Of a stretch of DNA of 64,000 nucleotides, positions 4,508 through 60,495 are shown one piece after another. Each line of letters begins with the position of its first letter. Within the stretch, counting starts at the first letter, position 1. A program made the position numbers and the translations under genes. The notes beneath the pieces were generated by a model. That model was given only the letters and a program-made list of their open reading frames with translations, ran no database searches and was not told the DNA's origin. The DNA lies in NCBI GenBank assembly GCA_027051165.1, contig JALTZZ010000035.1, positions 4,870 to 68,869 of the forward strand, given 5' to 3'. Source of the DNA: an archaeon (GTDB lineage Archaea; Hydrothermarchaeota; Hydrothermarchaeia; JALTZZ01).

Positions 4508-4999
4508 TTATACCCCATCAAAACTAAAGTAGTCGTCCAAACCGAACCAGTAGCCATGGGTCTCCATACTTTCCTTGATAAACTTTATCCATTCCAAATG
4601 CTCTCTTTCAAACTTTATCAGCAAATCAAAAACTTCTTCTGCATCCTTAATTTTTTCTCTGCACTTTATATAAAATGCTATGGAGTTTTCTTCAAGTAGT
4701 TCAGCTTCTTTTAAAATAATTTTATCATCGTCTGTAGCATTTATTTTTTCCTCAAACTTCTCCGGGAAAACTCTTTCTTCTAAAATTTTTGCCTTAGATT
4801 TTACGTCAATGCTACCTTTTTTTATAAGTTCCTCTTTAATATCTTCTAAGAATTTTCTGTGCCTAAGCTCTTCCTTAGCAAGAAACTCAAGAGTCTCTTT
4901 AGCTTTTCTGCTCTTAACTTTCTTAGATGCATTGTAATAGAAATTAAAACCCTTCTTCTCAATTTCAATTCCTCTATTTATGCAGTCTATAATGTTCAT
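4508..4999 (-). CDS. Rubrerythrin-like diiron ferritin-fold protein (no rubredoxin domain).
   Basis: Two E-x-x-H helices (EELRHRKFL, EREHLEWIK) in a ~160-aa helical protein. Confidence 0.65.
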   Translation of the reverse strand: MNIIDCINRGIEIEKKGFNFYYNASKKVKSRKAKETLEFLAKEELRHRKFLEDIKEELIKKGSIDVKSKAKILEERVFPEKFEEKINATDDDKIILKEAELLEENSIAFYIKCREKIKDAEEVFDLLIKFEREHLEWIKFIKESMETHGYWFGLDDYFSFDGV

Positions 5000-5044
5000 A
5001 AAAAATCGGAGAAAAATTAACGATGTTATTTCATAAAGTTTAAA

Positions 5045-5100
5045 GAGGATGATGAATTTGCCGAGTGCTGAGCGGTGATGAAAAGGGGAGTCTCTGACGA
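5045..5100 (+). ncRNA. C/D box sRNA (2'-O-methylation guide).
   Basis: C box AUGAUGA 5049-5055, then a 12-nt guide, D' box CUGA 5068-5071, a 3-nt spacer, C' box GUGAUGA 5075-5081, a 12-nt guide and D box CUGA 5094-5097. This is the canonical archaeal geometry with 12-nt spacers. Confidence 0.7.
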
Positions 5101-5270
5101 CCCTATTTTAAAAAAATTTTAACAGCTCTGCTTAGCCTTTGTTAAACATTTTCATCTCTTAGGTTTTAATAAATTCACTTAATAAATTCACTTAGACGAA
5201 ACATTAAGTTCACTTATCTAAGAGGATAAAGAGCCAAAGAAAAAATCTTCATAAAACATGTCGCTTTGAA

Positions 5271-5459: not shown

Positions 5460-6779
5460 TTAGCTTAAAAGCCATTTCCAAAGAGGAATAAATTCTATCT
5501 TTTTATTATCAATTTTTTCAGTGCCCTCATAATCCCATGTGATAATCATCAACTTTTTCGTTTTAAGTTCTTTTGAAGCCTTTATAAGAGAGCTAACTTC
5601 CCTATCCTTTACTTCTTCTCTCGTGCTTGCATAGGTTACCTGAACAAGCTCCTTTACTTTTGTGCCCTCCTTCAAAACAAAGTCAACCTCTTTTCCCTCA
5701 GCTTTTCCATATTCCTTCCAGTAAAAGACCTGAAACTTATTAAAAATCTCGCTTCTTCTCAAAAGCTCTAAAAACACTGTATTTTCCATGAGTCTGCTAA
5801 GAGAGGTCTCAACCTTAGAAACTCTTATCAAACCGTTGTCAACAACATAAATTTTCTTTGGATATTGCTTTTTGTCTTTGATTGAGTATGAAAATATCTC
5901 TAAAGGAAAAATAAAGAAAATTTCATTATAATATCTCATATAGTCCAGAAGTTTTGCTTTACCTATCTTAAATCCTAATGATTTTAGATAGCTATAGGCT
6001 TTAGAAATACTAAGATACTTTGCATGATTTGAGAGGCAATATCTTGTGAATTCCTCAAAAGCTGATATATTTCTTATTCTAAATCTTTCAACAAGGTCTC
6101 TGTAGAATATTGCATTGTAGTATGATTCCAAAATTTTTTCTTTTATTTTCTCATCCTCAAGAACAACTTCAGGAAAACCTCCAAATTCTATGTATTCTTT
6201 TAGATATCTTAAAATTTTGCCTCTTTCTTCTTCCAAATATTTTAATAATTCTTTTTTAAAGGTAATACCTTTAATTTTAAGGAATTCTCTAAAACTCAGG
6301 GGAAAAACAACAACATCAATGTTTCTTCCCCTAAGAGATGTGGATATCTCTCTGGAGAGGAGCTTTGAGGAAGATCCAGATAGATATAGTCTGTATTTTC
6401 CCTCATCATGGATTCTTCTAACCCATTTATCCCAATCTTTGACATTTTGTATTTCGTCTAAGAAGAAATAAACTGGTTTATCTCCCTCTGGTTTAAAAAT
6501 CTCGTAATATATTTTGATCATTGTTTCAAGGTCTCTTGCATCCAAATTTCTAAGTCTTTCATCCTCAAAGTTTACGTAGAGGATATTGTCCTTTTTCAGC
6601 CTTTTTGCAAGCTTTTTAATTAGTATAAACATGAGATAGGTTTTTCCAGCTCTTCTTGGTCCGACTATGCTTATTATTTTCCTTGTATCTAAAGGGGCTT
6701 CTATTTCCCTATTAAACGTCTCGGGAATTTCCTGAACCTTCCACTTTATAAGCACAGCTCTAAAGTCATCATCCCTCAT
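5460..6779 (-). CDS. AAA+ ATPase of the AAA_14/DUF4143 family (archaeal ATP-binding protein).
   Basis: Walker A GPRRAGKT, Walker B-like YFFLDEIQ, and a long conserved C-terminal DUF4143-type region. Length is 439 aa. Confidence 0.8.
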   Translation of the reverse strand: MRDDDFRAVLIKWKVQEIPETFNREIEAPLDTRKIISIVGPRRAGKTYLMFILIKKLAKRLKKDNILYVNFEDERLRNLDARDLETMIKIYYEIFKPEGDKPVYFFLDEIQNVKDWDKWVRRIHDEGKYRLYLSGSSSKLLSREISTSLRGRNIDVVVFPLSFREFLKIKGITFKKELLKYLEEERGKILRYLKEYIEFGGFPEVVLEDEKIKEKILESYYNAIFYRDLVERFRIRNISAFEEFTRYCLSNHAKYLSISKAYSYLKSLGFKIGKAKLLDYMRYYNEIFFIFPLEIFSYSIKDKKQYPKKIYVVDNGLIRVSKVETSLSRLMENTVFLELLRRSEIFNKFQVFYWKEYGKAEGKEVDFVLKEGTKVKELVQVTYASTREEVKDREVSSLIKASKELKTKKLMIITWDYEGTEKIDNKKIEFIPLWKWLLS

Positions 6780-6990: not shown

Positions 6991-7374
6991 TTATTTTATA
7001 CATCTTTTAAGATATTTTTCAACTTCTTTAACAAATATTTCTGCCATTTTCAGACATTCTTCGGCATCCTCTTTATCAATCATGAATCCTATACCGTAAT
7101 CTCCTTTTTGTCTCAAATTATATATTTTTCTAAAATATTTTCCAAGATTAGTATTAAAAATGCCAGATTTTATAAATAATATTCCAAATAAGCTCATTAC
7201 TCCTTTATGAGAATGTGTTTTAAGATTTTTTGTAAGTAAGGCTGCCTGAGCCATAAAAAACATAGCATAGTAACATCTTGAAACACAGGAATCGTAGTCT
7301 CCATCATTAAAAACAATCTCTGCTGTTCTTAGAAATCTTTTGGATTTGCTTATTAAATACTCTATTTCTTTCAT
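6991..7374 (-). CDS. HEPN-domain protein (toxin partner of the adjacent nucleotidyltransferase).
   Basis: ~127-aa helical protein with R-x4-HxK-like (RQKGDY) region, overlapping the upstream MNT gene by 4 nt. Confidence 0.7.
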   Translation of the reverse strand: MKEIEYLISKSKRFLRTAEIVFNDGDYDSCVSRCYYAMFFMAQAALLTKNLKTHSHKGVMSLFGILFIKSGIFNTNLGKYFRKIYNLRQKGDYGIGFMIDKEDAEECLKMAEIFVKEVEKYLKRCIK

Positions 7375-7691
7375 ACCGATATACCTTCGTCTTTTATACT
7401 TATAAAGAATGGTAATCTGTAGTTTTTAAAGATGCTCTCTTTCACAGCAACTATAGATACAAGTTCTCCTTCATTTAGAAGAATTTCAAAAAGAAGGTCG
7501 TTTAAGTAATTTTCCACATCTTTTGGATCTAATTTATCATCAATTACAACAAGAACGTCAATATCTGAATCTTCAGTAGCCTTACCTCTCGCATGAGAAC
7601 CGTAAAGTATAACTTTTATAATTTCATCTCCATATCTCTTTTTTAGATGTTCTTTTATCCGGTTTAATATTCGCCTAACCTTTTCGTTCAT
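7371..7691 (-). CDS. Minimal nucleotidyltransferase (MNT), partner of the HEPN protein.
   Basis: Pol-beta-type NTase motif LYGSHARGKATEDSDIDVLVV. Length is 106 aa. Confidence 0.8.
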   Translation of the reverse strand: MNEKVRRILNRIKEHLKKRYGDEIIKVILYGSHARGKATEDSDIDVLVVIDDKLDPKDVENYLNDLLFEILLNEGELVSIVAVKESIFKNYRLPFFISIKDEGISV

Positions 7692-7760: not shown

Positions 7761-8981
7761 TTAGTATGCAGCTAATTTTTCGCTCATACAAAGGTTTAAT
7801 GATTCCCCTCTATATATAGGGCAATTGTCTGGAGAGCATTTCTGTAGATATCCGAGCATTGCAAGTATTGGACAATACTTATCACTTTCAGAAACAATAT
7901 CACTTATGCAGAGTTTTAAGATGTTTTTATTATTATGTAAAGGACAAATATAGCACAGATTCTTATCACAGAAAATTCTTGCAAAATCAAAGGTTACATC
8001 AAACTGCTCTGGATAAAATTTGTGTTGTTTAAAAATTTTGTTGTAATCCTTATAAATCTCTCTAATACCTTTTGGAGGATATTTGCTGTATTTTTTATCC
8101 AATTTTTCAATGATAGGCTTCATAACTCTTTCGTAGAATTTTTCATTCCAAACATCTCCTGGAACTTCGAGCTGGTTGAGATACTTATTCGCATTTCTCC
8201 ATCTGCTTAAAACTTTAGAGCTGTGGTGCTTATAATTTTCAAGAGAGCTGAGAATATAACTTTCGTAAATAAAACCTTTTAAATAATCACGCAAAGCTGA
8301 CCATAAACGCTTGTGCCAGAGGTTATTCTTTTTTCTTGAAAAATATCTCTCAAATTTTTCTTCATTATTTAAAACATCAATTATTTCATCTACATCGCTA
8401 TACTCGTTATCGTATGTTAATAAATAAAGTCCAGTAGCTACTTTTCTTACCCAGTTTTCTTCATTTCCATAACTTGTTACGGTGAGCATGAACTCAATTA
8501 AATCCTTATTAAAACTTTTCTCTAATATTTTAAGAGTTCTTTCTACTTTTTCAACTAATCTATGATTTTTTGCTTTCATGAATCTATGTTTAAATTTATC
8601 TTTATTATCAACATTCTTTTCAATGCTAAAGTGTCCTTCCTCATCATTGTAGTATTTTTTAATAACCTCATCGGCAGAAAGCCCTTCTTGAAACTCTTTA
8701 ACAATACGAGTCATTATCGGAAAACACTTTTCCCATACACGTTCGACGGGCATTTGATAATCAAAAATATACATTAGCCAATGGGAAAGCACTAAATGTT
8801 TTGACTCAAAATCATCAATTTCTTCGTTTTTATACTTTTCCCACATTTTGTTTGTATATTTAAGCAACTCTTCTATCCCTCGTTCTTTATGTTCACCATT
8901 CCATCTTGCATTATCAACCCATTTAAAGAATTTCCATAATCTTAATAAATTTTGATTAGTCATAAGTGTTATTTTTGTCAT
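7761..8981 (-). CDS. Uncharacterised 406-aa protein with a Cys-rich C-terminal domain (two CxnCxxC-type clusters). No family recognised.
   Basis: Long ORF with coding-like composition. The C-terminus is CDKNLCYICPLHNNKNILKLC...CPILAMLGYLQKCSPDNCPIYRGESLNLC. It lies between the HEPN-MNT and VapBC modules. Confidence 0.6.
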   Translation of the reverse strand: MTKITLMTNQNLLRLWKFFKWVDNARWNGEHKERGIEELLKYTNKMWEKYKNEEIDDFESKHLVLSHWLMYIFDYQMPVERVWEKCFPIMTRIVKEFQEGLSADEVIKKYYNDEEGHFSIEKNVDNKDKFKHRFMKAKNHRLVEKVERTLKILEKSFNKDLIEFMLTVTSYGNEENWVRKVATGLYLLTYDNEYSDVDEIIDVLNNEEKFERYFSRKKNNLWHKRLWSALRDYLKGFIYESYILSSLENYKHHSSKVLSRWRNANKYLNQLEVPGDVWNEKFYERVMKPIIEKLDKKYSKYPPKGIREIYKDYNKIFKQHKFYPEQFDVTFDFARIFCDKNLCYICPLHNNKNILKLCISDIVSESDKYCPILAMLGYLQKCSPDNCPIYRGESLNLCMSEKLAAY

Positions 8982-13158: not shown

Positions 13159-14802
13159 ATGGAGGTAGGTGATGTTGCCAATTCCGTAGAGCTTAAAGAG
13201 GAGGACGTAATTCTCAACAACATCCTCGCAGTATCAGTTTTAAGCGAAACCCTAAAGACTACGCTCGGTCCAAAGGGATTTGATAAAATGCTCAGAGACA
13301 GCTACAACCAAGTAGCAATAACAGATAACGGAGCTGCAATACTTGCTATAGCAAACATTCAGCATCCTATAGCAAAAATGGTGGTTAATCTTGCCAAGAT
13401 TCATGAGAGGGATTTTGGAGACGGCACGACAACTCTCGTTGTTCTCGTAGGCGAACTTTTAAAGAGGGCTGGAGACCTTATGCAAAAAGGATTGATGCCA
13501 GCCACCATAATAAGCGGATATATAAAAGCCCAGAAAAAAGCATTGGAAATTTTAAAAGAGCTGTCCCTTGACGTTAGGAAGGAGGATATATTCAATATAG
13601 CATACAGCTCGCTTAAAGGAAAGCTGAGCGATGAGGATGCGAAGCATTTGGCAAAGATAGCTACGGAAGCGATAACGAGGGCTAAGGATAAGGAGAACAT
13701 ACTAATAAGCTACAGACCCGGAGGAAAAATAAGGGATACTGTTTTAATTGACGGCGTGTTTATAGATCTTGGAAAAAGGGTTCACCCAAGCATGCCGAAA
13801 AAAGTTAAAAATGCAAGAATATTGCTTGTTGACAGAGAAATTTCAACTTATATACCTAAGGGCACGAAGTTTGTGATGAACGATCCGAGAAGCGTAAGAG
13901 CTTTGATGGAGTATAAGCACAGACTTTTCTACACCGTTGCAAGCATTATAAAGAGGGCTGGAGCTAACGTTGTTCTCTGCGAGAAGAACATAGAAGAGCT
14001 TGCAATGTTTTATTTCGCAAGATTTGGAATAATGGCTGTTAGGGATGTAGAAAAACCTGTTTTAAAGCTTTTAGAAAAGGCTACAAAAGCAAGAATAGTG
14101 AGCAACGTTAAAGACGTTAATCCAAGCGTTTTGGGATACGCAAAACTCGTTGAAGAAAGCAAAATAGGTTTAGAAGAAATAATGTATGTTACAGGATGTT
14201 TAAATAAAGATGTTGTCTCAATACTCGTTAGGGGTGGAAGTGAAGTAACAGCAATGGAAGTGGAGAGAAAAATGAGAGATTTAATAATAATGCTTGAAAG
14301 GGTCTACAAGAGCAAGAGGGTTCTCGCTGGTGGTGGAGCTTGCGAAATAGAGCTGGCTGAGAGGTTGAGAAGGTTTGCAAAAACAATACCGACGAAAGAA
14401 CAGCTCGCAGTAGAAGCTTTCGCAGATGCCCTTGAAACGATACCTAAGGCAATAGCAATGAATGCTGGCATGAACGTAATAGATGCGATTATAAGCCTGA
14501 GATACGAACACGGTAAAGGTAATATATACCATGGCTTAGATGTAAACGACAGAAAAATCAAGAACACGTATGAAGCCGGGATAATAGACAACTACGTTTC
14601 AAAGAGGCAGATTATAAGAGCGGCAACGGAGCTTGCAGTAACAATACTTAAGGTTGACAGCATAATAGCCAAAAAGCCTAAGCCAAAGAAGAAACCAGTA
14701 GAAAAACCAAGACAAATTTTCAAGGAAGGAAAAATAGATTTAACAGAAGCTGTAAGAGAGTCGAGGCAAGTTTTGAAGCGTATCGAGAAGATGAATCTCT
14801 AA
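13159..14802 (+). CDS. Group II chaperonin (thermosome/CCT family) paralog, divergent, with a basic Lys-rich C-terminal tail.
   Basis: LGPKGFDKML, ITDNGAAIL, GDGTTT and an apical domain are present. The tail is KKPKPKKKPVEKPRQIF... instead of the usual Gly/Met-rich tail. Confidence 0.75.
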   Translation: MEVGDVANSVELKEEDVILNNILAVSVLSETLKTTLGPKGFDKMLRDSYNQVAITDNGAAILAIANIQHPIAKMVVNLAKIHERDFGDGTTTLVVLVGELLKRAGDLMQKGLMPATIISGYIKAQKKALEILKELSLDVRKEDIFNIAYSSLKGKLSDEDAKHLAKIATEAITRAKDKENILISYRPGGKIRDTVLIDGVFIDLGKRVHPSMPKKVKNARILLVDREISTYIPKGTKFVMNDPRSVRALMEYKHRLFYTVASIIKRAGANVVLCEKNIEELAMFYFARFGIMAVRDVEKPVLKLLEKATKARIVSNVKDVNPSVLGYAKLVEESKIGLEEIMYVTGCLNKDVVSILVRGGSEVTAMEVERKMRDLIIMLERVYKSKRVLAGGGACEIELAERLRRFAKTIPTKEQLAVEAFADALETIPKAIAMNAGMNVIDAIISLRYEHGKGNIYHGLDVNDRKIKNTYEAGIIDNYVSKRQIIRAATELAVTILKVDSIIAKKPKPKKKPVEKPRQIFKEGKIDLTEAVRESRQVLKRIEKMNL

Positions 14803-17257: not shown

Positions 17258-20200
17258 CTAAAGCTCGCATATCTCTCCTCTCGCACAGCCGCCAGAGTAT
17301 TCTGAGCTTACCTTTACATGCTCCCCAACGTATAGCACTTGCTTGCTCTTGCTTCCATATCTATAAACCGTTATTCCCTTGCACCTTAGCTTATAGGCAA
17401 GCAGAAATACCTTTCTAACATCCTCTAAGGTTGCGTTGTGCGGAAGATTTACTGTTTTAGCCACTGCATTATCTGTATACTTCTGAAAAGCCGCCTGCAT
17501 TCTTACGTGCCACTCCGGCTCTATATCGAGGGCGGTTACAAAGAGTCTTTTGACATCTCTTGGCACTCCATCTACGTTCTGCACAGAACCTACCTTGGCT
17601 ATCTTTGTTATAAGCTCCTTACTGTAAAATCCTCTCTTTTTAGCGATCTCCTCAAAAACTCTATTAACCTCAACGAGCCTAACTCCCTCTAAAACCTCTC
17701 TAACGTAGGCTACTGCAAACAGAGGCTCTATACCGCTTGTGGTTCCAGCTATTATGCTTATTGTTCCGGTAGGTGCTATTGTTGTTACTGTTGCATTTCT
17801 TAGAGCATCGTATCTGCCTTTATATATGCTCTTCTCAAATGCTGGAAATACTCCTCTTTCAAGTGCAAGCTCTCTCGAAACTTCTTTCGCAGTCTCGTTT
17901 ATAAACTTCATAACCCTTTCAGCCGTCTTGAGGGCTTCATCGCTGTCATAGGGTATTTCAAGCTTTATAAGCATCTCCGCAAAGCCCATTACTCCCAAAC
18001 CTATTTTTCTCGTTCTCTTTGTAGCCTCTTCTATCTCCTTCAGTGGATATCTGTTTACGTCTATAACGTTGTCCAAGAACCTTGTTGCAATTCTTACAAC
18101 CTCTCCGAGCCTCTCAAAATCTATTTCGTTGTTTTTAACGAACTTACTCAGATTTATTGACCCCAAATTACAGCTTTCATAAGGTAGCAGAGGAACCTCA
18201 CCACATGGATTTGTAGCCTCTATTGAGCCAAGCTCTGGCGTTGGATTGTGCCTGTTTATCTCATCGAGGAATATTATACCGGGATCTCCGCTTCTCCATG
18301 CGTTTGCAACCATGAGATCGAAAACGTCCCTTGCGTTTATCGTTCCAACAGCTTCGTTTGTTCTCGGATTTATAAGCTCGTAGTCTTCGCCTTTAATTGC
18401 CTTCTCCATGAACTCATCGGTAACAGCTACAGAAATGTTAAAGTTTTCAAAAACTCCCTCACGCTCTTTGCACGTTATGAATTCAAGGATATCTGGGTGA
18501 TTGTAGTTTAGTATTCCCATGTTTGCTCCTCTTCTCTTGCCACCTTGCTTTATAACATCCGTGGCAACATCGAATATTCGCATGAACGAAACGGGACCGC
18601 TGTTTGATGTATATACCCCGTTTCCAGAGAGTAGATGAACATCTCTAATCTCAAGGTCATAAACTTTTTTTCTTCCAATTTTTTCTATTTTAACAATTTT
18701 GTTTGGGTATAGCTTAGATAAAAGCTTAAAGTATTCTATCTCGCTTGAGTTTAGGTTTAATTTATCCTTTAGCTTTATTATTTTGTTTATGAATTCTCTA
18801 TGGGTTACCCTTGAATTATAGGAGAGTATTTTTAAATCTCTCTGCAGTTTCGCTCTAACTTTTTCATTTTCTATCTTATACATCACGTTAAATGGAAAAG
18901 AATACTTCTTGTTTTTACCCCTTTTTTCTAAATATTTTAAAGCCTTTTCAGCAATTCTTGATATTTTTACAGATTCCTTTAACTCCCTAAAAGCCTTTAT
19001 TTTCATGTCTTTTGTCTGAATTCTAAGAGAATAAACAGTTTTCCTCCTATTTTTTGGCTTATATATTTGAATGCTCGAAACAATTCCAAGAGCCAAGAGG
19101 AGAATCTGTAGATCCTTTATAAATTGCTCTGAGACGGATTTAAATACGATTCTGTAATTGTTATCAAAGCTCCCGTCCCCGTCGAAGAATCCAGATATGA
19201 AAGCTGATACAACTTCTGGCTTGCTTCTAAATATATGCTCTGGAACATATATTCTATCTGATTCTTTTTTTATTAATCCATTTTTTTCGAGAAATCTCAC
19301 AACCTTTGTTGATGGGATTACAAGGGTCGTTCTATTTCCATATGCATACTCTCTAACCTTTACGCCAAAAATCTCCTGAGATATTGACCTAACTTTCTCC
19401 TTTATGTCGTGCTCATTCTCGTTATTAAGATAAATTTCTATCCTTGCACATTTAACAGTTTTTCTTCCATTTCTATTGTATCCATATTTATATGAGATGT
19501 GTCCATCTGCATACAAAATTCCAAGTAAGTATGCGAGCTTTTCGTCGAGAACATTTGGTAGTTTGGCTTTGCTTCTGCTCTTAATTCTTGTGTTAAGCTC
19601 TACGTAATCTGTGGAGTATTTGTCCGGTATAAGTAGATATACATAGTCACCTACTTTAAGCTCTTTTAAAGGTTTTAAGTAAGGATTTCCATTTCTATCA
19701 AAGACAAAGAATTTATGATCCTCACTGACTTTTACTTCGTATCCGTCCTCAAGAACTACTCTGAATATCTCAAGTTCTCCGCTGTATCTGTTTAAAATAG
19801 GTTTATATCCTCTGTGAGTTGCAACTGATGTAAGGCTTTTGTTTTCAACAAGCTCCTTTATCTTTACAAAACCTTTGTTTGTCAAAATTCTTGTATCTCC
19901 AGAAAAGCATGCTATTCCTTTGGTGCTTTTAACAACGTCACCCTTTGGTCTTATCTTGCTGAAGTTGAATCCTGTTCCACCCCCAGCTTTATGTATTAGA
20001 GCTGTATATTTTATAGTATCGAATATACTCTCTAAACTGTCCTCTATTGGCAGAACGAAGCATGCACTGAGAACACCTAAGTCTGTGCCAGCGTTCATAA
20101 GCGTTGGTGAGTTCGGCAGAAACTCAAGGTTTGTCATTACCCTTAAAAACAGATTTTCCCATTTATCCCTCTCTTTTTCAATGCTTGCAATGGCTCTTGC

Positions 20201-20623
20201 AACCCTCTTAAACATTTGCAAAGGGGTTTCTATGATGTTTCCTTTTTCATCTCTTAAAAGATACCTACGCCTCAAAACTTCTATAGCATTTACTGTAAGC
20301 TTCAGTTCATCTTTATGAACGCCTAAGAACTTTTTTGCCTCTCTTATCTTTTCTCTTTCCTTTCTGTATAAAATATAAGCCTTAGCTACCTTTGCGTAGC
20401 CGTGCTTTATCAAAACTTCCTCAACGATATCTTGAACATCTTCTACATGTGGAATTCCCTTTATTCTTTCCTCCAATATTTTTACAACTTCATCTGCAAG
20501 TTTCTCAGCAACACTACCGTCTTTTTCTCCAGTTGCTATAAATGCTTTTAAAATTGCATTCTTTATTTTAGTCTTATCAAAGTCCTGTGTTGTGCCGTCT
20601 CTCTTTATAATCTTTTTTATCAT
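17258..20623 (-). CDS. nrdJ: Adenosylcobalamin-dependent (class II) ribonucleotide reductase with an N-terminal ATP-cone, interrupted by a 436-aa intein.
   Basis: ATP-cone KRDGTTQDFDKTKI, PNSPTLMNAG, GGGTGFNFSKIRPKGD..STKGIA|intein|SGPVSFM..QGGKRRGANMG and NPCGE. The mature extein is ~685 aa. Confidence 0.9.
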   Translation of the reverse strand: MIKKIIKRDGTTQDFDKTKIKNAILKAFIATGEKDGSVAEKLADEVVKILEERIKGIPHVEDVQDIVEEVLIKHGYAKVAKAYILYRKEREKIREAKKFLGVHKDELKLTVNAIEVLRRRYLLRDEKGNIIETPLQMFKRVARAIASIEKERDKWENLFLRVMTNLEFLPNSPTLMNAGTDLGVLSACFVLPIEDSLESIFDTIKYTALIHKAGGGTGFNFSKIRPKGDVVKSTKGIACFSGDTRILTNKGFVKIKELVENKSLTSVATHRGYKPILNRYSGELEIFRVVLEDGYEVKVSEDHKFFVFDRNGNPYLKPLKELKVGDYVYLLIPDKYSTDYVELNTRIKSRSKAKLPNVLDEKLAYLLGILYADGHISYKYGYNRNGRKTVKCARIEIYLNNENEHDIKEKVRSISQEIFGVKVREYAYGNRTTLVIPSTKVVRFLEKNGLIKKESDRIYVPEHIFRSKPEVVSAFISGFFDGDGSFDNNYRIVFKSVSEQFIKDLQILLLALGIVSSIQIYKPKNRRKTVYSLRIQTKDMKIKAFRELKESVKISRIAEKALKYLEKRGKNKKYSFPFNVMYKIENEKVRAKLQRDLKILSYNSRVTHREFINKIIKLKDKLNLNSSEIEYFKLLSKLYPNKIVKIEKIGRKKVYDLEIRDVHLLSGNGVYTSNSGPVSFMRIFDVATDVIKQGGKRRGANMGILNYNHPDILEFITCKEREGVFENFNISVAVTDEFMEKAIKGEDYELINPRTNEAVGTINARDVFDLMVANAWRSGDPGIIFLDEINRHNPTPELGSIEATNPCGEVPLLPYESCNLGSINLSKFVKNNEIDFERLGEVVRIATRFLDNVIDVNRYPLKEIEEATKRTRKIGLGVMGFAEMLIKLEIPYDSDEALKTAERVMKFINETAKEVSRELALERGVFPAFEKSIYKGRYDALRNATVTTIAPTGTISIIAGTTSGIEPLFAVAYVREVLEGVRLVEVNRVFEEIAKKRGFYSKELITKIAKVGSVQNVDGVPRDVKRLFVTALDIEPEWHVRMQAAFQKYTDNAVAKTVNLPHNATLEDVRKVFLLAYKLRCKGITVYRYGSKSKQVLYVGEHVKVSSEYSGGCARGEICEL
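18602..19909 (-). mobile_element. Intein (with LAGLIDADG homing endonuclease) in nrdJ, residues 239-674.
   Basis: Begins CFSGDTRIL after the extein KSTKGIA and ends GNGVYTSN before the extein SGPVSFM. LAGLIDADG blocks are LAYLLGILYADGHI and VVSAFISGFFDGDGSF. Codon positions were checked against the DNA. Confidence 0.85.
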
Positions 20624-21369: not shown

Positions 21370-22767
21370 TTAAAGACCTTTTACAAAGGATTCTGCAGCT
21401 TTCTGAAGGTAGTTTACTATTTCGCTTGGATACAAGCCTATTACTATAACAAGGATCACTGCAATTATTAGAGCAAGGGTAACGCTTAGAGGCTCGTTTA
21501 TTTTTGTCTCATTCTCAGCTTTTGCCCAATACATGTAGCTTATTATTCTGCCGTAGTAGAATATTGATATCGCACTGTTTACTACAAGAAGAACTGCTAA
21601 TACGTATCCCACGCTACCACCAGCGTATATCGCTGAAAGCAGTATGTAGAATTTGCTTAAAAATCCCGCAAGCGGTGGAACTCCAATTAAGGATAGCAAC
21701 AGTATTGTAAGCATTAGTGCGGTTATAGGTGCTTTTTTGCTAAGCCCCTTGTAATCTTCTATGTTTTCTCCAGCAACTATTCCAGCTATAAAGGCACCAG
21801 CCTTCATTACCGCATGCACGAGTATGTGTAGTAACGCCGCCGCAATCGCAAATATTGCAACTTTCGTGTTTAAGAGGGCTAAGGCTATTATTATGTAGCC
21901 AGCATGTCCTATGCTTGAGTATGCAAGCATACGCTTTATATTTGTTTGAGAGAGAGCTACGATATTTCCATACGTCATTGTAAGGGCTGCAAGTATTGCA
22001 AATGCAAGTGCCCAGTAGTTCGCTATTGGTGAAAGAGCTATATAGAATATTCTTAGAACCGCAAGAAAGCCCATCTTCTTGCTTGCACTCGATAGAAATG
22101 CACTAATCGGTGTTGGCGATCCCTGATATACATCTGGTGCCCATGCGTGGAATGGAAATGCTGCCATTTTAAATGCAAATCCAGCAACCAAGAAGAGGGA
22201 TGCGAGAATGCTCACCGTGTTGAGCTCAAGCCTGTTTATCATCTCGTATATGTTTGTAGTTCCCGTTAGTCCATACAGTAGCGACATTCCAAAGACTATT
22301 AAGCCAGAGGATACCACCGCAAATACGAAATACTTCATAGCCGCTTCGCTCGTCTGCTTATCTCTAAAGAAGCCTGCAAGAATAAAGCTTGGTATCGTTG
22401 CAAGTTCAAGGGCAACATACAGCATTAGGAGGTCTATGGAGCTCGCTAAGAGAAGCATGCCCATTAGGCTCATCAGCAACAGAGAGTAGTATTCCCCTTC
22501 CCTCTTGTTTATATCCTTCAGTGAGCTCAGTATTACAAGAAAGGCAACCGTTAGGAATACAGCCTTAAAAACTATTGCAAAATCGTCTACTGCATATATT
22601 CCCCATGCAGTCATTCTTGGAAGCTTGAATAGAGATACAAATGCAAGAGCTACTGCTAAGAGGCTTAAATATCCAAGAATCTTTCTCTGAGTTACTGTAT
22701 AGTTGAGGAGTATTATTAGGCTCGCAAACGCTCCAATAATTATTTCAGGAACTATATATCCCACCAT
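21370..22767 (-). CDS. nuoN: Complex I-like subunit N (NuoN/FpoN).
   Basis: 465-aa polytopic antiporter-like subunit, last gene of the operon. Confidence 0.85.
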   Translation of the reverse strand: MVGYIVPEIIIGAFASLIILLNYTVTQRKILGYLSLLAVALAFVSLFKLPRMTAWGIYAVDDFAIVFKAVFLTVAFLVILSSLKDINKREGEYYSLLLMSLMGMLLLASSIDLLMLYVALELATIPSFILAGFFRDKQTSEAAMKYFVFAVVSSGLIVFGMSLLYGLTGTTNIYEMINRLELNTVSILASLFLVAGFAFKMAAFPFHAWAPDVYQGSPTPISAFLSSASKKMGFLAVLRIFYIALSPIANYWALAFAILAALTMTYGNIVALSQTNIKRMLAYSSIGHAGYIIIALALLNTKVAIFAIAAALLHILVHAVMKAGAFIAGIVAGENIEDYKGLSKKAPITALMLTILLLSLIGVPPLAGFLSKFYILLSAIYAGGSVGYVLAVLLVVNSAISIFYYGRIISYMYWAKAENETKINEPLSVTLALIIAVILVIVIGLYPSEIVNYLQKAAESFVKGL

Positions 22768-22773
22768 CCTTGA

Positions 22774-24249
22774 TCACCTCGCAAGCAGCTTTTCGCTTGC
22801 TTGACTAATAATTTCCACAGCATGGAACGGATAAAGCCCAAGGAAAGCTATAAGGATTATCAGCACAGCTAATGCAACTGCTTCGCTTGATGTAAGCACC
22901 TCTTTAACCTTCTTTACCCTATCGTTTGGAGAGTTGAATATTGCCCTCTGAAGCATGAAGGAGTAGTATCCAGTTGTCAGTCCTATCGAAAGTGCTGCAA
23001 GGACAAGAACCCATAGAGGCATTATTCCCATTTTTACAGCGTTGTATAAGCCGAAGAGTATGAGGAGCTCTGCTACGAAACCGCTTAAGCCGGGCAAGCC
23101 AATGCTCGCCATGCTTGCATACACCATGCTCCATCCAACTTTTGGCATGCTCCTTGCAACTCCGCTGAGCTGTGATATGAGCCTCGTTTTTAAGTGCTGG
23201 TTCATTATACCGCATGCTAAGAAGAGCATCGCCACTATAAGCCCATGGCTCACCATCTGGAATATTGCACCGTTGAGCCCTGTTAGATTGAAGCTGAGCA
23301 AGCCGAGGAGAACGAAGCCCATGTGGCTGACGCTTGAATAAGCTATGAGCTTCTTTATATCATCCTGAGCCAGAGCTAAGAACCCAGCATAGAATATGCT
23401 GAGCAAGCCGAGGAGTGCTAAGGGATACGAATAAAGCTGGAAGAAGTCTTCAAAGAAGCTGAATGCCAATCTTATTAAACCGTAAGCTCCCATCTTTGAG
23501 ACCAGCGCTGCCAGTATAAGCGTTACTGGTGAAGGTGCCTGTGTGTATGCATGAGGTAGCCATGTGTGGAATGGAACAAATGGTATCTTGAATGCAAACC
23601 CTATGAACAGCAGCAAAAATACAAGCTTTGCCTCTTCGATGCTTAAACTGAGCGTCTTTTCAATCGCAATTATATTCGTTGTGTTCGTTGCAAACAGTAG
23701 CTTTAGAAAGCCAATCAGCATGAACAGACTTCCTACATGGGTGTATATAAAGAACTTCATTGCAGCATAGGTTTTCTCTTTACCCCCCCATATTCCTATT
23801 AAGAAGAATCCGGGTATTAGAACGAATTCCCAGAATACATAGAAGAAGAATAGATCAAGGCTCTCGTATATCCCTATGAGACCCATTTCCATTAGCAACA
23901 TTAGTGCATAGTATTCTGGAAGTCTGTATGTTATTCTATTCCAAGATGCAAGAATTGCAACCACGAATAAAACTGTTGTTAGCAGTATCATTGGCAGGCT
24001 TAAGCCATCTACGCCAAGACTGAACGTTATCTCCTTGTCAAATATTGTTAGCCACTTGTAGTTTACGCTCGGATAAAGGGACTCTGGATTGCTCATAAAC
24101 ATTGGTATGAGCGGAATGCTTGCAAGCAGTGTTAAAAGCGAAAATAGGAGTGCAATATGCTTTGCAGACTCCTCATTGCCCTTTCCAAACACATAGGTCA
24201 ATACCGCACCTATTAGCGGCAACAGTATAAGCATTGTTAGAGGCTCCAT
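22774..24249 (-). CDS. nuoM: Complex I-like subunit M.
   Basis: 491-aa antiporter-like subunit, with position in the operon consistent. Confidence 0.85.
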   Translation of the reverse strand: MEPLTMLILLPLIGAVLTYVFGKGNEESAKHIALLFSLLTLLASIPLIPMFMSNPESLYPSVNYKWLTIFDKEITFSLGVDGLSLPMILLTTVLFVVAILASWNRITYRLPEYYALMLLMEMGLIGIYESLDLFFFYVFWEFVLIPGFFLIGIWGGKEKTYAAMKFFIYTHVGSLFMLIGFLKLLFATNTTNIIAIEKTLSLSIEEAKLVFLLLFIGFAFKIPFVPFHTWLPHAYTQAPSPVTLILAALVSKMGAYGLIRLAFSFFEDFFQLYSYPLALLGLLSIFYAGFLALAQDDIKKLIAYSSVSHMGFVLLGLLSFNLTGLNGAIFQMVSHGLIVAMLFLACGIMNQHLKTRLISQLSGVARSMPKVGWSMVYASMASIGLPGLSGFVAELLILFGLYNAVKMGIMPLWVLVLAALSIGLTTGYYSFMLQRAIFNSPNDRVKKVKEVLTSSEAVALAVLIILIAFLGLYPFHAVEIISQASEKLLAR

Positions 24250-24262
24250 TGCTTTCTACCCC

Positions 24263-26164
24263 CTAAATTGAGAGTATTATTAACAGAACACTTAATCCAA
24301 GGAATATCAGCGTAACATAATCCTGAATTTTACCTGTCTGAAGTTTCTTTATCACATCACCAAACATCAGTGTTACCTTTGCAATTCCGTCAACGATGTA
24401 TTTGTCGTATAACCTTTCAAGAACGTCAAGCAGAAGACTGAATACATAGACAATTCTCTCAGCGAAGTAGTTGTATGCATGGTCAAAGTAATACTTGTTG
24501 TTCACAAGCGTGTGTATAGGCTTGAATGTCCTTACTATCGTTTCACTCGAAACAACTTTTAGATAATAAACCGCAAAGACTGTTAGGAATGAAATCACAG
24601 CTATAATTGCAGAGATTACTGCTATTTTTTCATGCTCGTCTTCTGTGAGATGGGGCAGATGATAGGGCGCATATTCTCCCACCCAATCGCTTACAACTTC
24701 GTCGTAGCCAAACAGCTTAACCGTCGGGACTATAAACGAGCAAGCTGCAAGCACTATAAGCGGGACTGTCATTATTGCCGGAGACTCGTGAGCATGCTCT
24801 GCTTCCTTGCTTTTAGGCTTTCCAAGGAAGACTATGAAATACCATCTGAACAGATAAGCCACGCTCAGAAAGGCTGTTACCATTGTAAGGTAGTATAGAT
24901 AAATATATGCTGGCTCATGCATCGCACTCGCCTTTATTGCTGCGAGGATTTCATCTTTGCTCCAGAATCCGCCAAAGGGCGGAAGTCCGCTTAAACTCAC
25001 TATTGCAACAAGAGCTGTTATTGCAGTTATTGGCATCTTCTTCCACAAGCCGCCAAGCTTCCTTATGTCAATGCTTCTCGCATGAACAGCATGAAGAACG
25101 CTTCCGGTTGCAAGGAAGAGTAGAGCTTTAAACATTGAATGGTTTATAAGGTGATACATCCCCGCAGCTATGCTTCCAGAGCCAAGTGCAAGTGCAATAA
25201 AGCCAAGGTGACTCATCGTTGAATATGCAACTATACGCTTTATATCAATTCTAACCAAGCCCATGCTTGCAGCCATAAATGCTGTTATTGCTCCAATGTA
25301 GGCTACAACGAGCATTGCTGTGTCTGAGAGAACGTAGAGCGGATACATCCTTGCAACCATGTAGACACCAGCCTTTACCATCGTTACTGCATGTATGAGT
25401 GCACTAACCGTGGTTGGACCTTCCATAGCATCTGGAAGCCACACGTGCAGAGGCACTTGAGAGCTCTTACCCATAGCCCCTATAAAGAGTAACAGCGAAA
25501 CAATGGTTATCTGCTCTTCCGTAAGCTCTTTTGGTGCCCTTTCAAAGATTTCAACAATATCAAGTGTATGTAGCCAGTTGTATAGGAGAACGAGCCCGAG
25601 CATGAAGCCTATGTCTGCAACCCTCGTAACAATTATTGCCTTCTTCGCTGCACTTGCTGCGGTGCTATACTTATACCAGTATCCTATGAGGAGATATGAA
25701 CATAGACCTACAAGCTCCCATGCTATGAACAGCAACAGGATGTTTCTCGATATAACAAGCAAGAGCATGCTTGATATGAATAGGCTCATCTCTGCATAGT
25801 ATCTGTGCACGGTCTCATCGCCGTGCATATAGCCGAGGCTGTATATCATTATAATGAGGCTTCCAAAGGCTACTACAAAGAGCATTACCGCTGCAAGCTT
25901 ATCTATAAGCAATCCAAACTTAAATATCTCTTCTGCAAACCCTACACTCTCCTTGCTTATCCATGTAATACCGTTTTCATATGTAAGCTCTTTTCCACTG
26001 AGAACCTCTATAATTACAAATACTGAAAGTATGAAAGACAATGCAGTAAACAAAACCGCCACTATGCCACTTCTTTCACCCCATCTACTTCCAAACAGCG
26101 TTATAAGAACAAAAGCTACTGCTGGAAATGTTGGTATGAGCCATGCATACTCCAGAGCACTCAT
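24263..26164 (-). CDS. nuoL: Complex I-like subunit L.
   Basis: 633-aa antiporter-like subunit with a long C-terminal extension, with position in the operon consistent. Confidence 0.85.
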   Translation of the reverse strand: MSALEYAWLIPTFPAVAFVLITLFGSRWGERSGIVAVLFTALSFILSVFVIIEVLSGKELTYENGITWISKESVGFAEEIFKFGLLIDKLAAVMLFVVAFGSLIIMIYSLGYMHGDETVHRYYAEMSLFISSMLLLVISRNILLLFIAWELVGLCSYLLIGYWYKYSTAASAAKKAIIVTRVADIGFMLGLVLLYNWLHTLDIVEIFERAPKELTEEQITIVSLLLFIGAMGKSSQVPLHVWLPDAMEGPTTVSALIHAVTMVKAGVYMVARMYPLYVLSDTAMLVVAYIGAITAFMAASMGLVRIDIKRIVAYSTMSHLGFIALALGSGSIAAGMYHLINHSMFKALLFLATGSVLHAVHARSIDIRKLGGLWKKMPITAITALVAIVSLSGLPPFGGFWSKDEILAAIKASAMHEPAYIYLYYLTMVTAFLSVAYLFRWYFIVFLGKPKSKEAEHAHESPAIMTVPLIVLAACSFIVPTVKLFGYDEVVSDWVGEYAPYHLPHLTEDEHEKIAVISAIIAVISFLTVFAVYYLKVVSSETIVRTFKPIHTLVNNKYYFDHAYNYFAERIVYVFSLLLDVLERLYDKYIVDGIAKVTLMFGDVIKKLQTGKIQDYVTLIFLGLSVLLIILSI

Positions 26165-26165
26165 T

Positions 26166-26468
26166 TTACCACCTCATCTCCTTTATTTTACCAACGTTGA
26201 GCGTTAGATAATTTCTATATATCATCATTACAATTGCAAGACCCACCGCAGCTTCTGCAGCCGCTATTATTATTGTAAACAGCACAAAGACGTTCCCTGT
26301 TATATCACCCATGTATCTGGAGAATGCTATAAAATTCAAATTTGCAGAGTTAAGCAGTATTTCAACACCCATAAGTATCCTTATCATGTTTCTTGTCGTC
26401 AGTATCCCGAACACGCCTATTGAGAAGAGTATGAGCGAGAGCATAATATAGCTTGACAGCGGAACCAT
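26166..26468 (-). CDS. nuoK: Complex I-like subunit K.
   Basis: 100 aa with 3 TM helices, with position in the operon consistent. Confidence 0.8.
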   Translation of the reverse strand: MVPLSSYIMLSLILFSIGVFGILTTRNMIRILMGVEILLNSANLNFIAFSRYMGDITGNVFVLFTIIIAAAEAAVGLAIVMMIYRNYLTLNVGKIKEMRW

Positions 26469-26475
26469 ACCCCTT

Positions 26476-26958
26476 TCACCCCCTCCTCCTTGCTAAATAT
26501 ATGGCACCTATCATCGCTGCAAGTAAAAGAAAGCTCGCTGCTTCAAATGGTATTACATACGTCTGGAAGAGCTTTGTCCCAACGCTCGCACCAGTTGCAG
26601 AGAACTCTTTTTCTGGCACGTATTTTTCCCATGTATGCTTCGCTAAGTAAAAGAGCGATAGAACGACAAACGCTATAAGGGCAACAGCTCTCGATGTCGT
26701 TACCTCAGATACCGATGGCTCTCTTTCCTTTGTAAGCATTATTGCGAAGAGTATTAACACAAGAACGCCACCAGCATATACAAGTATCTGGACTGCGGCT
26801 ATAAACTCTGCGTTCAGCATTGCAAAGAACATAGCCATTGTGACCAAGAGTAGACTTAAGGAAAGTGCACCCCTAAATATATTCTTCGATAAAAACACAA
26901 ATAAACTTGAAACAACGGCTATAACGCTGAGGATTAAAAACATTATTAAATCTTTCAT
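26476..26958 (-). CDS. nuoJ: Complex I-like subunit J.
   Basis: 160-aa membrane subunit between nuoI and nuoK. Confidence 0.75.
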   Translation of the reverse strand: MKDLIMFLILSVIAVVSSLFVFLSKNIFRGALSLSLLLVTMAMFFAMLNAEFIAAVQILVYAGGVLVLILFAIMLTKEREPSVSEVTTSRAVALIAFVVLSLFYLAKHTWEKYVPEKEFSATGASVGTKLFQTYVIPFEAASFLLLAAMIGAIYLARRRG

Positions 26959-27423
26959 TTATACCTCCTCCCTTGTTTTTGCAAGATCTTCATATGTTTT
27001 TAAAAGTTCTTCCCTTGTATAACCAGCCATTTCATAATTTCTCGTAAGCTTAATTGCTTTTGTTGGACAGTTCTCCTCGCAGAGACCGCAGAACATGCAT
27101 CTACCAAGATAAACATTTGGATGCTTCTTTGGTTTTTTAACAACCTTGCCGCTCTTTAGTTTTGTTTCTATAACACCAGCGGTGACCATCTCTATAGTTT
27201 TGTTTGGACATACCCTTGCACATGTGCCGCAGCCTATACATTTGTTTAAATCAAGCTTGTGCATGCCTATGGAATGACTTGGTAAAGTAAGCCTCTCCTC
27301 CGGATACTGAACGGTAATTGGCTTTATAAATAAATGCCTAAATGTAATGGAGAGGGGTATTATGTGCAGAACTCTTATAATTTTTCTTAATACACCCATA
27401 TCTTCTTCACCCCACCACAGCAA
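26959..27423 (-). CDS. nuoI: Complex I-like subunit I (2x[4Fe-4S] ferredoxin).
   Basis: CIGCGTCARVCP and CMFCGLCEENCP. Confidence 0.9.
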   Translation of the reverse strand: MLWWGEEDMGVLRKIIRVLHIIPLSITFRHLFIKPITVQYPEERLTLPSHSIGMHKLDLNKCIGCGTCARVCPNKTIEMVTAGVIETKLKSGKVVKKPKKHPNVYLGRCMFCGLCEENCPTKAIKLTRNYEMAGYTREELLKTYEDLAKTREEV

Positions 27424-28489: not shown

Positions 28490-28495
28490 TTCGCA

Positions 28496-30095: not shown

Positions 30096-30107
30096 ACTTT
30101 TACCTCT

Positions 30108-30590: not shown

Positions 30591-30596
30591 ATGTTT

Positions 30597-40401: not shown

Positions 40402-40419
40402 GATGTCTCTAGTCTTGAG

Positions 40420-60223: not shown

Positions 60224-60495
60224 AAAACATAACTCTGCAGTCAAGTATTAAATCTTTATCCTTCCAAGTGCACGTGCGTGAGAAGACTATGGTTAAAGGT
60301 GTTGACACAACAATGAACATAATGGTATGTCTGCTCAATTTGTTACCGATATTTGGCTACCCTATGAAAACGCTTATCTTATCGGTGCTTGTAAGACCCC
60401 TTTCATGAAGTTTAAACTTCTTTAAATAGCTGCTCGAAGCTTTTGAAAACCTACGCATGCAAGCCACAACAGTTTTATAGGCTGGTTATAAATTA

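What the first reader, a model, noticed from the sequence alone, without database searches (positions are those of the whole stretch)
5045..5100. Textbook C/D box sRNA in the rubrerythrin-ATPase intergenic region
Plus strand: aUGAUGA(5049-5055)-atttgccgagtg-CUGA(5068-5071)-gcg-gUGAUGA(5075-5081)-aaaggggagtct-CUGA(5094-5097). Both guide regions are exactly 12 nt and the D'-C' spacer is 3 nt, the geometry conserved in (hyper)thermophilic archaeal methylation guides. No protein-coding potential. Predicted targets are the complements cactcggcaaat and agactccccttt, with modification 5 nt upstream of D'/D.
Basis: seen in the sequence. Interest (0 to 1): 0.6.

Follow-up and report, generated by a model that had tools for sequence, protein, structure and literature searches.

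The report
Archaeal C/D box methylation guide RNA
This is a real but ordinary small guide RNA gene of an uncultured deep-sea vent archaeon, of the well-known kind that directs methylation of ribosomal RNA, and one of its two guides matches a site already known to be targeted in several other archaea.

Summary
Window 5049-5097 (+) reads aUGAUGA / 12 nt / CUGA / GCG / gUGAUGA / 12 nt / CUGA. It is the only such motif in 64 kb; about 1e-5 are expected by chance and none appeared in 300 shuffles. It is also the only place in the window where any Rfam family scores E<=1 (snoPyro_CD, 39.7 bits, below the gathering score of 45).

Two related vent archaea carry the same RNA upstream of the same rubrerythrin-like gene. 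Boxes and both guides are invariant. The 3-nt D'-C' loop and the 3' flank have diverged.

The D' guide AUUUGCCGAGUG is the same guide as in RNA-seq-verified sRNAs of Pyrobaculum, Thermoproteus and Ignicoccus, with a variant in Nanoarchaeum. It pairs by 11 consecutive Watson-Crick pairs with 23S rRNA AACUCGGCAAAU, putting the methyl on the C that aligns with E. coli 1672.

The D guide has no perfect complement in any rRNA I could reach. Its best candidate is 23S GGGACU(U/C)CCCUUU, aligning with E. coli 122-133. The organism's own rRNA was not available.

The host is an uncultured archaeon from Brothers volcano whose nearest named relatives are Ca. Hydrothermarchaeota.

Verdict: a genuine new member of a well-known RNA class. 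Low interest.

The parts
5045..5100 (+). Box C/D sRNA gene (approximate transcript body)
   Evidence: Rfam snoPyro_CD hit 5045-5100 (+), 39.7 bits, E=9e-5 for the whole window, full model 1-58. Conserved in orthologous loci L003 and L004/L005/L006.
5049..5055 (+). C box aUGAUGA
   Evidence: Read directly. Invariant in all orthologues.
5056..5067 (+). D' guide AUUUGCCGAGUG (12 nt). G5063 is the N+5 position.
   Evidence: Identical 12-mer to the D guide of P. calidifontis sR38. The same guide, with a 5'-end variation, is in T. tenax sR151 and I. hospitalis sR169 (PMC4644070 suppl. 1). It makes 11 consecutive WC pairs with AACUCGGCAAAU in five archaeal 23S loci. Its only variable position (A/G at 5056) pairs with U either way.
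5068..5071 (+). D' box CUGA
   Evidence: Read directly. Invariant.
5072..5074 (+). 3-nt D'-C' loop (GCG), closing the K-loop
   Evidence: The only freely varying stretch inside the RNA: GCG / ACG / GGU in the three lineages.
5075..5081 (+). C' box gUGAUGA
   Evidence: Read directly. Invariant.
5082..5093 (+). D guide AAAGGGGAGUCU (12 nt). A5089 is the N+5 position.
   Evidence: Invariant in all three lineages while the flank 5 nt further on is unalignable. The best candidate target is 23S GGGACU(U/C)CCCUUU, aligning with E. coli 122-133.
5094..5097 (+). D box CUGA
   Evidence: Read directly. Invariant.
5106..5120 (+). Oligo-T tracts (TTTT 5106-5109 and TTTT 5117-5120), the likely archaeal terminator
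   Evidence: Read directly. L003 has TTTTT at a similar distance from box D. The function is inferred.
5000..5044 (.). Conserved spacer between the rubrerythrin start codon (4999, - strand) and the sRNA. It presumably holds the divergent promoter(s), for example AAAAATTAAC at 5012-5021 about 25-30 nt upstream of the sRNA 5' end.
   Evidence: TTAACGATGTTATTT is invariant across the three lineages. The promoter assignment is inference only.

Best explanation
Window 5045-5100 (+) is an independently transcribed gene for a roughly 55-nt archaeal box C/D sRNA. By analogy with the established mechanism, L7Ae binds the K-turn formed by boxes C and D and the K-loop formed by C' and D'. Nop5 and fibrillarin then assemble on both. 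Each 12-nt guide pairs with rRNA, and fibrillarin 2'-O-methylates the nucleotide paired to the fifth guide position upstream of box D' or D. The D' guide directs methylation of the C in 23S rRNA GGGAACU[C]GGCAAAU at the start of domain IV, which aligns with E. coli A1672. This site is targeted by the same guide in Pyrobaculum, Thermoproteus, Ignicoccus and Nanoarchaeum. The D guide most likely pairs with 23S domain I, GGGAC[U](C/U)CCCUUU, which aligns with E. coli 122-133, with the modified U at about 126. What is shown: the motif, its statistical uniqueness, its conservation pattern, the D' complementarity and the identity of that guide with published sRNAs. What is inferred: transcription, RNP assembly, actual methylation, the D target and the promoter.
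For: The motif has exact 12/3/12 geometry and is unique in the window. The chance expectation is 1.2e-5 and 300 shuffles gave none. It is the only Rfam signal with E<=1 in 64 kb, all on the + strand at 5045-5100. Three distinct orthologues show 47 of 51 positions invariant in 5049-5099; the changes are confined to the first D'-guide nucleotide (A/G, both pair with U) and the 3-nt loop, while the 3' flank is about 30% invariant. In L004 the downstream neighbour is a different gene (PurP instead of the ATPase), yet the sRNA is retained. The D' guide equals the Pca sR38 D guide and matches Iho sR169, Tte sR151 and Neq sR21, all RNA-seq-detected, and the site is annotated P38/N21/T51/I169 in the published 23S alignment. 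AACUCGGCAAAU is present in all five archaeal 23S loci retrieved. That gives 11 continuous WC pairs, meeting the criterion of at least 9 in PMC6009581. For the D guide, the 23S nt 122-133 site is the top hit in two archaeal 23S sequences that were not selected for it (L024, L099). Twenty-eight metagenomic archaeal 23S sequences read GGGACUUCC(C/U)UUU there, giving 12 of 12 pairs with 2-3 G.U. M. kandleri sR107 has a guide (GGAGGUCCCAUU) to the overlapping AAUGGGACCUC segment.
Against: The Rfam score is below the curated gathering threshold (39.7 vs 45). No perfect complement of the D guide was found in any rRNA available: in the surrogate 23S sequences a G.U at guide position 6 breaks the run of WC pairs, so the strict criterion is not met. 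The exact site GGGACUCCCCUUU was not among the hits in JGI metagenomes. L129 and the other metagenome hits were selected by the pattern, so their match is not independent evidence. The organism's own rRNA, tRNAs, transcriptome and C/D RNP protein genes are not in the window. There is no recognisable terminal stem and no significant fold (z=-0.75), which is usual for archaeal C/D sRNAs but adds nothing.
Confidence: 0.9

Rival explanations
1. It is a genuine C/D sRNA, but the D guide does not target 23S nt ~126. It is either an orphan guide or is directed at a tRNA, 16S rRNA, another stable RNA or an mRNA of this lineage.
For: No perfect complement was found in 5 archaeal rRNA loci, 7 published archaeal 23S/16S alignments or the JGI metagenome scans. 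Orphan guides are common in archaeal sRNAs (PMC6009581; PMC4644070). [quoted passage not shown]
Against: The D guide is as strictly conserved as the boxes, which argues for a real target. The domain I site is the best hit in unselected archaeal 23S sequences, and its variable 3' half lies in a lineage-variable segment of 23S, so this lineage could carry the exact complement.
Confidence: 0.4
2. It is a C/D-type RNA whose main role is not methylation. It could act as an rRNA folding chaperone tethering domain I and domain IV, or as an L7Ae-binding K-turn element with a regulatory role.
For: Dennis et al. propose chaperone roles for dual guides that bind distant rRNA segments. L7Ae/K-turn regulation has been described (PMC5539422, listed).
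Against: Canonical boxes, 12-nt spacing and a WC pair at N+5 in the D' duplex are exactly what catalysis needs. The RNA is on the strand opposite the adjacent rubrerythrin mRNA, so it cannot be a cis K-turn in that message.
Confidence: 0.05
3. It is a chance cluster of box-like words, or a conserved DNA-level promoter or operator element of the rubrerythrin gene, and not an RNA gene.
For: The adjacent 45-nt upstream spacer is also conserved. The Rfam score is sub-threshold.
Against: The chance expectation is about 1e-5. Conservation follows RNA logic: loop free, boxes and guides fixed, and the A/G change keeps pairing with U. One guide is identical to guides of expressed sRNAs in other phyla. 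The element starts 50-100 nt upstream of a start codon, further than an archaeal core promoter needs.
Confidence: 0.02

Closest known systems
Pyrobaculum calidifontis sR38, Thermoproteus tenax sR151, Ignicoccus hospitalis sR169 and Nanoarchaeum equitans sR21 (Dennis et al. 2015, PMC4644070)
   Same: They carry the same guide: ATTTGCCGAGTG in Pca sR38 (an identical 12-mer), GTTTGCCGAGTG in Iho sR169, (GT)TTTGCCGAGTG in Tte sR151 and GTTTGCCGATTA in Neq sR21. They predict the same 23S target, GGGAACUCGGCAAAUU, including the unpaired G next to the box.
   Different: The shared guide sits next to box D in Pca and Tte, but next to D' here and in Iho and Neq. The partner guide is unrelated in every case. 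Their boxes are more degenerate than the perfect consensus boxes here. Those organisms belong to other phyla, so common descent cannot be separated from convergence.
Rfam RF00095 snoPyro_CD, and RF01150 sR11 and other Pyrococcus sR families
   Same: Full-length alignment to the 58-nt model with all four boxes and the same spacing. The sR11 consensus shares UUUGCC at the start of the D' guide.
   Different: 39.7 bits is below the gathering score of 45, and sR11 scores 29.2 against 39. The guides outside the boxes do not match the Pyrococcus families, and the terminal stem of the model is not formed (marked non-canonical).
Methanopyrus kandleri sR107
   Same: It has a guide (GGAGGUCCCAUU) complementary to the 23S domain I segment AAUGGGACCUC, which overlaps the candidate D-guide site here.
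   Different: The register is shifted by about 4 nt, so a different nucleotide would be modified. The partner guide is different.
Eukaryotic box C/D snoRNAs
   Same: The same boxes, the same N+5 rule and the same enzyme family (fibrillarin). This is established knowledge, summarised in PMC7994747.
   Different: The archaeal form is much shorter (about 55 nt), symmetric, dual-guide with fixed 12-nt spacers, and uses L7Ae on both the K-turn and the K-loop.

Membership tests
Archaeal box C/D sRNA (2'-O-methylation guide) | C box RUGAUGA near the 5' end and D box CUGA near the 3' end | tested here: met
   AUGAUGA at 5049-5055 and CUGA at 5094-5097. Invariant in orthologues.
Archaeal box C/D sRNA (2'-O-methylation guide) | Internal D' and C' boxes separated by a short loop (K-loop) | tested here: met
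   CUGA 5068-5071, a 3-nt loop, then GUGAUGA 5075-5081.
Archaeal box C/D sRNA (2'-O-methylation guide) | Two guide spacers of 10-12 nt (12-nt box-to-box spacing) | tested here: met
   Both spacers are exactly 12 nt. The 10-12 nt rule is quoted from PMC7994747.
Archaeal box C/D sRNA (2'-O-methylation guide) | At least 9 continuous WC pairs to rRNA or tRNA around N+5 (criterion of PMC6009581), D' guide | tested here: met
   11 continuous WC pairs with AACUCGGCAAAU in five archaeal 23S loci and in L129. Caveat: these are surrogate rRNAs, not the organism's own.
Archaeal box C/D sRNA (2'-O-methylation guide) | At least 9 continuous WC pairs to rRNA or tRNA around N+5, D guide | tested here: inconclusive
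   The best site, 23S GGACUUCCCUUU, gives 10 WC plus 2 G.U, and the WC run is broken at position 6. No perfect complement was found. The organism's own rRNA and tRNAs are unavailable.
Archaeal box C/D sRNA (2'-O-methylation guide) | Evolutionary conservation of boxes and guides with free loop and flanks | tested here: met
   Alignment A1 of three distinct lineages.
Archaeal box C/D sRNA (2'-O-methylation guide) | Expressed as a discrete 50-70-nt RNA bound by L7Ae, Nop5 and fibrillarin | not testable with these tools
   No transcriptome or RIP data are available. No L7Ae, Nop5 or fibrillarin gene was found among the window ORFs that were scanned.
Rfam RF00095 snoPyro_CD | Covariance-model score at or above the gathering threshold (45 bits) | tested here: not met
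   39.7 bits. The model is built from Pyrococcus sequences, so this argues against that specific family and not against the class.
Pan-archaeal guide family for the 23S site aligning with E. coli 1672 (Pca sR38, Tte sR151, Iho sR169, Neq sR21) | Guide (A/G)UUUGCCGAGUG immediately 5' of a D or D' box | tested here: met
   Window 5056-5067 is identical to the Pca sR38 guide. The site is annotated in the published alignment.

The most novel reading that the evidence does not exclude
The two guides bind segments about 1,600 nt apart in 23S rRNA: domain I at about nt 126 and the start of domain IV at about nt 1672. The RNP would then act mainly as a long-range folding tether during ribosome assembly in a hyperthermophile. 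Alternatively, the strictly conserved D guide serves a non-rRNA target specific to this uncultured Hydrothermarchaeota-related lineage.
Probability: 0.15. Interest if true: 0.4.

Novelty: new member of a known kind. Interest (0 to 1): 0.2.

Why it matters
It adds an unannotated C/D box sRNA to an uncultured vent lineage for which I found no paper mentioning C/D sRNAs. Standard Rfam gathering thresholds miss it. It also extends one of the more widely shared archaeal rRNA methylation guides, the 23S site aligning with E. coli 1672, beyond the four species in which it was known. That bears on whether such guides are ancestral or convergent. Beyond better annotation and one more data point on conserved rRNA methylation in hyperthermophiles, nothing here challenges current understanding.

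Tried and rejected
1. A perfect 12-mer D' target in 23S (CACTCGGCAAAT plus context) gave 0 hits in genome contigs. The real site is AACUCGGCAAAU, with position 1 unpaired.

Most hits were bacteria, and only 5 archaeal loci were usable.

3. I tested whether the D guide targets 23S around nt 235-250 (GAGAUUCCCC...AGUAG). A bacterial 23S (L120) has AGACUCCCCUAG there, but the exact pattern gave 0 hits in metagenomes. The seven published archaeal 23S sequences differ at N+5 or beyond. Rejected.

4. I considered a D target in the L1-stalk region, ACACUGCCCUUU, about 465 nt 3' of the D' site. It has two mismatches, one next to N+5, at positions that are the same in the two loci that have this sequence. 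Considered unlikely and not pursued.

5. No targets lie inside the window or the related loci: only chance-level 2-mismatch hits, and no tRNA or rRNA genes.

6. A tRNA target was considered by inspection only. The 12-mer does not fit an anticodon arm, because position 37 would be C. The lineage's tRNAs were not available.

7. Getting the taxonomy from paper supplements failed for the accession numbers. Only the sample origin was recovered. Taxonomy came instead from MCM homologue names. PDB thermosome scores were uninformative.

8. The exact look-up of the window's MCM found no contig on record, so the assembly accession of the window itself was not obtained.

9. MFE folding shows no significant structure, as expected for this class.

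Full report
**Observation**

The plus strand of window 5045-5100 reads gagg-AUGAUGA-AUUUGCCGAGUG-CUGA-GCG-GUGAUGA-AAAGGGGAGUCU-CUGA-cga.

- A regex for the full C-guide-D'-loop-C'-guide-D arrangement finds this one site on both strands of the 64-kb window, even when the boxes are allowed to be degenerate.
- The analytic expectation for the strict motif is 1.2e-5 per window. In 300 dinucleotide-preserving shuffles neither the strict nor the loose motif ever occurred.
- No ORF of 20 aa or more overlaps the element.
- It lies between a rubrerythrin-family ORF (4508-4999, minus strand) and an AAA_14/DUF4143 ATPase (5460-6779, minus strand).

**Model-based check**

At Rfam gathering thresholds the window has no hit at all, and ARAGORN finds no tRNA. 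With E-value reporting over the whole window, both strands and 4,227 families, the only hits with E<=1 are seven archaeal C/D families. All of them fall at 5044-5100 on the plus strand. The best is snoPyro_CD (RF00095) at 39.7 bits, E=9e-5, a full-length alignment. The score is below the curated cut-off of 45, so routine annotation would miss this gene. MFE folding shows nothing beyond shuffled controls (z=-0.75), which is normal for an RNA whose architecture is a K-turn plus K-loop.

**Conservation**

The rubrerythrin-like neighbour has only three close homologues in the 5.8-billion-protein collection. Their contigs give three distinct versions of the locus:
- the window itself, identical to Logan contig L001 from SRR10312489;
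- L003, whose neighbour protein is 87% identical;
- L004/L005/L006, 83% identical, including NCBI assembly GCA_015520175.1.

In alignment A1 the 51 nt from box C to just past box D are invariant at 47 positions. The exceptions are the first nucleotide of the D' guide and the three loop nucleotides between D' and C' (GCG, ACG, GGU). The D'-guide change is A or G, and both can pair with a U. Five nucleotides beyond box D the sequences become unalignable, with roughly 30% of columns invariant. Twelve of twelve invariant D-guide positions therefore cannot be neutral.

In L004 the gene beyond the sRNA is PurP rather than the ATPase. The sRNA travels with the rubrerythrin gene and its 45-nt upstream spacer, not with its other neighbour. 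The spacer (5000-5044) is itself conserved: TTAACGATGTTATTT is invariant. It presumably holds divergent promoter elements. An A/T-rich AAAAATTAAC lies about 25-30 nt upstream of the sRNA, and oligo-T tracts follow box D at 5106-5109 and 5117-5120. These promoter and terminator assignments are inference.

**D' guide and its target**

The guide AUUUGCCGAGUG pairs with 23S rRNA 5'-AACUCGGCAAAU-3' through 11 consecutive Watson-Crick pairs. Only the guide G next to box D' is unpaired.

- The perfect 12-mer CACUCGGCAAAU in its 23S context does not exist in 185,579 species genomes.
- AACUCGGCAAAU does exist. All five archaeal 23S loci recovered carry it, in the context GGGAACUCGGCAAAUU(G/A)GCCCCGUAACUUCGGGA. 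These are Thermofilaceae, Vulcanisaeta, a Thermoplasmatota MAG, a Methanobacteriota MAG and archaeon HR02.
- Aligned to E. coli rrlH, the 12-mer corresponds to nt 1668-1679. The nucleotide opposite guide position 5 (G5063) is a C that aligns with E. coli A1672.
- Eleven continuous pairs meets the published criterion of at least nine (PMC6009581).

More tellingly, the RNA-seq-derived sRNA catalogue of Dennis et al. 2015 (PMC4644070, supplement 1) contains the same guide in four species:
- P. calidifontis sR38, ...ATTTGCCGAGTG-CTGA, an identical 12-mer located next to box D;
- T. tenax sR151, ...TTTTGCCGAGTG-CTGA;
- I. hospitalis sR169, GTTTGCCGAGTG-TTGA, next to D';
- N. equitans sR21, GTTTGCCGATTA-CTGA.

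Their 23S alignment marks this site with P38, N21, T51 and I169. The D' guide is therefore a new instance of one of the more widely shared archaeal guides. Dennis et al. name helix 61 among the methylation hot spots, but I did not confirm that this site lies in that helix. The partner guides of those four sRNAs are unrelated to the D guide here, which fits the authors' remark that shared guides may be convergent.

**D guide**

The guide AAAGGGGAGUCU would be perfectly complementary to AGACUCCCCUUU. I found no such sequence in any of the following:
- the window or the related loci;
- the five archaeal rRNA loci;
- the seven published archaeal 16S and 23S sequences;
- a targeted metagenome scan of the 23S region around nt 240, which returned zero hits.

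An unbiased scan allowing G.U pairs put the same site at the top in the two unselected archaeal 23S sequences that cover it. These are GGACUUCCCGUU in L024 and GGACUUCCUAUU in L099, directly after the conserved AAUG of 23S domain I.

A metagenome scan for that site with pyrimidines allowed at guide-G positions returned 29 contigs. Twenty-eight of them are archaeal 23S 5' regions by sequence context, four confirmed with Rfam, and they read GGGACUUCCCUUU or GGGACUUCCUUUU. Against GGACUUCCCUUU the guide forms 12 of 12 pairs: 10 WC plus G.U at positions 1 and 6. This is the best site in the complete 16S plus 23S of L129, scoring 11 against 9 for the runner-up. Shuffled guides reach that score in 3 of 400 trials. 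L129 was selected by the pattern, so this is not an independent P value.

The site aligns with E. coli 122-133 and the modified U with E. coli A126. L129 carries both target sites in one 23S, about 1,600 nt apart. The 3' half of the site lies in a segment that differs between lineages, so this lineage could well read GGGACUCCCCUUU. That exact sequence was not among the JGI hits, and the organism's own rRNA was out of reach. M. kandleri sR107 has a guide against the overlapping AAUGGGACCUC segment, so the region is a known sRNA target, though not at the same nucleotide. I rate this assignment at about even odds. The alternative is an orphan guide or a tRNA or other target.

**Organism**

The identical locus occurs in SRR10312489, a 2018 chimney sample (S141) from the NW caldera of Brothers volcano. 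The window encodes thermosome, MCM, Elp3, an intein-containing B12-dependent ribonucleotide reductase, an intein-containing PolD large subunit and a Nuo-type complex. It is an archaeon outside the Thermoproteota; PolD's absence from that group is from my own knowledge. The MCM's nearest named relatives, at 57-61% identity, are Candidatus Hydrothermarchaeota MAGs and Ca. Pyrohabitans. No paper in the library mentions both Hydrothermarchaeota and box sRNAs.

**Mechanism**

This follows the established model summarised in PMC7994747. L7Ae binds the C/D K-turn and the C'/D' K-loop. Nop5 dimers bridge the two halves and position fibrillarin. Each 12-nt guide forms a duplex of about 10-12 bp with substrate, and the nucleotide paired to the fifth position upstream of D' or D receives a 2'-O-methyl. 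Here that predicts Cm at the 23S position aligning with E. coli 1672 (well supported) and Um at the position aligning with E. coli 126 (tentative). None of the RNP proteins is encoded among the window ORFs I scanned, and expression cannot be tested with these tools.

**Verdict**

This is a genuine, previously unannotated member of a very well known RNA class. One guide belongs to a known pan-archaeal guide family, and the other guide's target remains to be confirmed. Novelty: new member of a known kind. Interest: low (0.2).

Noticed in passing
window 5166-5216: Three direct copies of TAAATTCACTTA (5170-5181, 5183-5194, and 5205-5216 with one mismatch) lie in the otherwise unassigned 360-nt stretch between the sRNA and the 3' end of the ATPase gene. 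The corresponding stretch of L003 is shorter and reads differently, and I saw no copy of the repeat there by eye.
   Followed up: partly
window 17258-20623 (-): A B12-dependent ribonucleotide reductase of 1121 aa. Its match to the RNR models is split, and residues 238-675 match the intein-bearing part of a replicative-helicase model, so the gene apparently carries an intein.
   Followed up: partly
window 55433-60244 (-): A DNA polymerase D large subunit (DP2) of 1603 aa interrupted by an intein with a LAGLIDADG homing-endonuclease domain (about residues 908-1350).
   Followed up: partly
window 6991-7691 (-): An overlapping HEPN (6991-7374) and minimal nucleotidyltransferase (7371-7691) gene pair, a typical toxin-antitoxin module, right next to the AAA_14/DUF4143 ATPase.
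   Followed up: partly
window 33589-43422 (-): Two very large adjacent ORFs. The first is 2270 aa with CARDB and CWB2 domains only near the C-terminus. The second is 1000 aa with only a weak Big_1 hit and no NCBIfam family. They are probably surface proteins, and most of their length is unassigned.
   Followed up: partly
window 7761-8981 (-): A 406-aa ORF with a cysteine-rich C-terminus and no Pfam family at E<=1e-4.
   Followed up: partly
window 13159-14802 (+): A thermosome-like chaperonin that scores below the curated cut-off of the general archaeal thermosome model (472 vs 671 bits). It is about equally distant from all solved archaeal thermosomes, so it is either a divergent paralogue or a sign of a deep lineage.
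   Followed up: partly
window 21370-30962 (-): A run of same-strand genes looks like a Nuo/Fpo-type membrane complex. The four ORFs I scanned matched NuoN (21370-22767), NuoM (22774-24249), NuoL (24263-26164) and chain 3/NuoA (30597-30962). The ORFs between 26476 and 30590 were not scanned.
   Followed up: partly
L140 1-2494: A metagenome contig that joins an archaeal LSU rRNA 5' part (1-2051) to a bacterial LSU rRNA 3' fragment (2084-2494). It is probably an assembly chimera.
   Followed up: no
L003 vs L004 vs window, 3' side of the sRNA: The gene beyond the sRNA differs between lineages: the AAA_14/DUF4143 ATPase in the window and L003, and PurP in L004/L005. On the far side of the rubrerythrin gene, the window has NfeD-HisD and L002/L003 have DsrE/DsrH genes. 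The rubrerythrin-sRNA pair is a small conserved island in a rearranged neighbourhood.
   Followed up: partly
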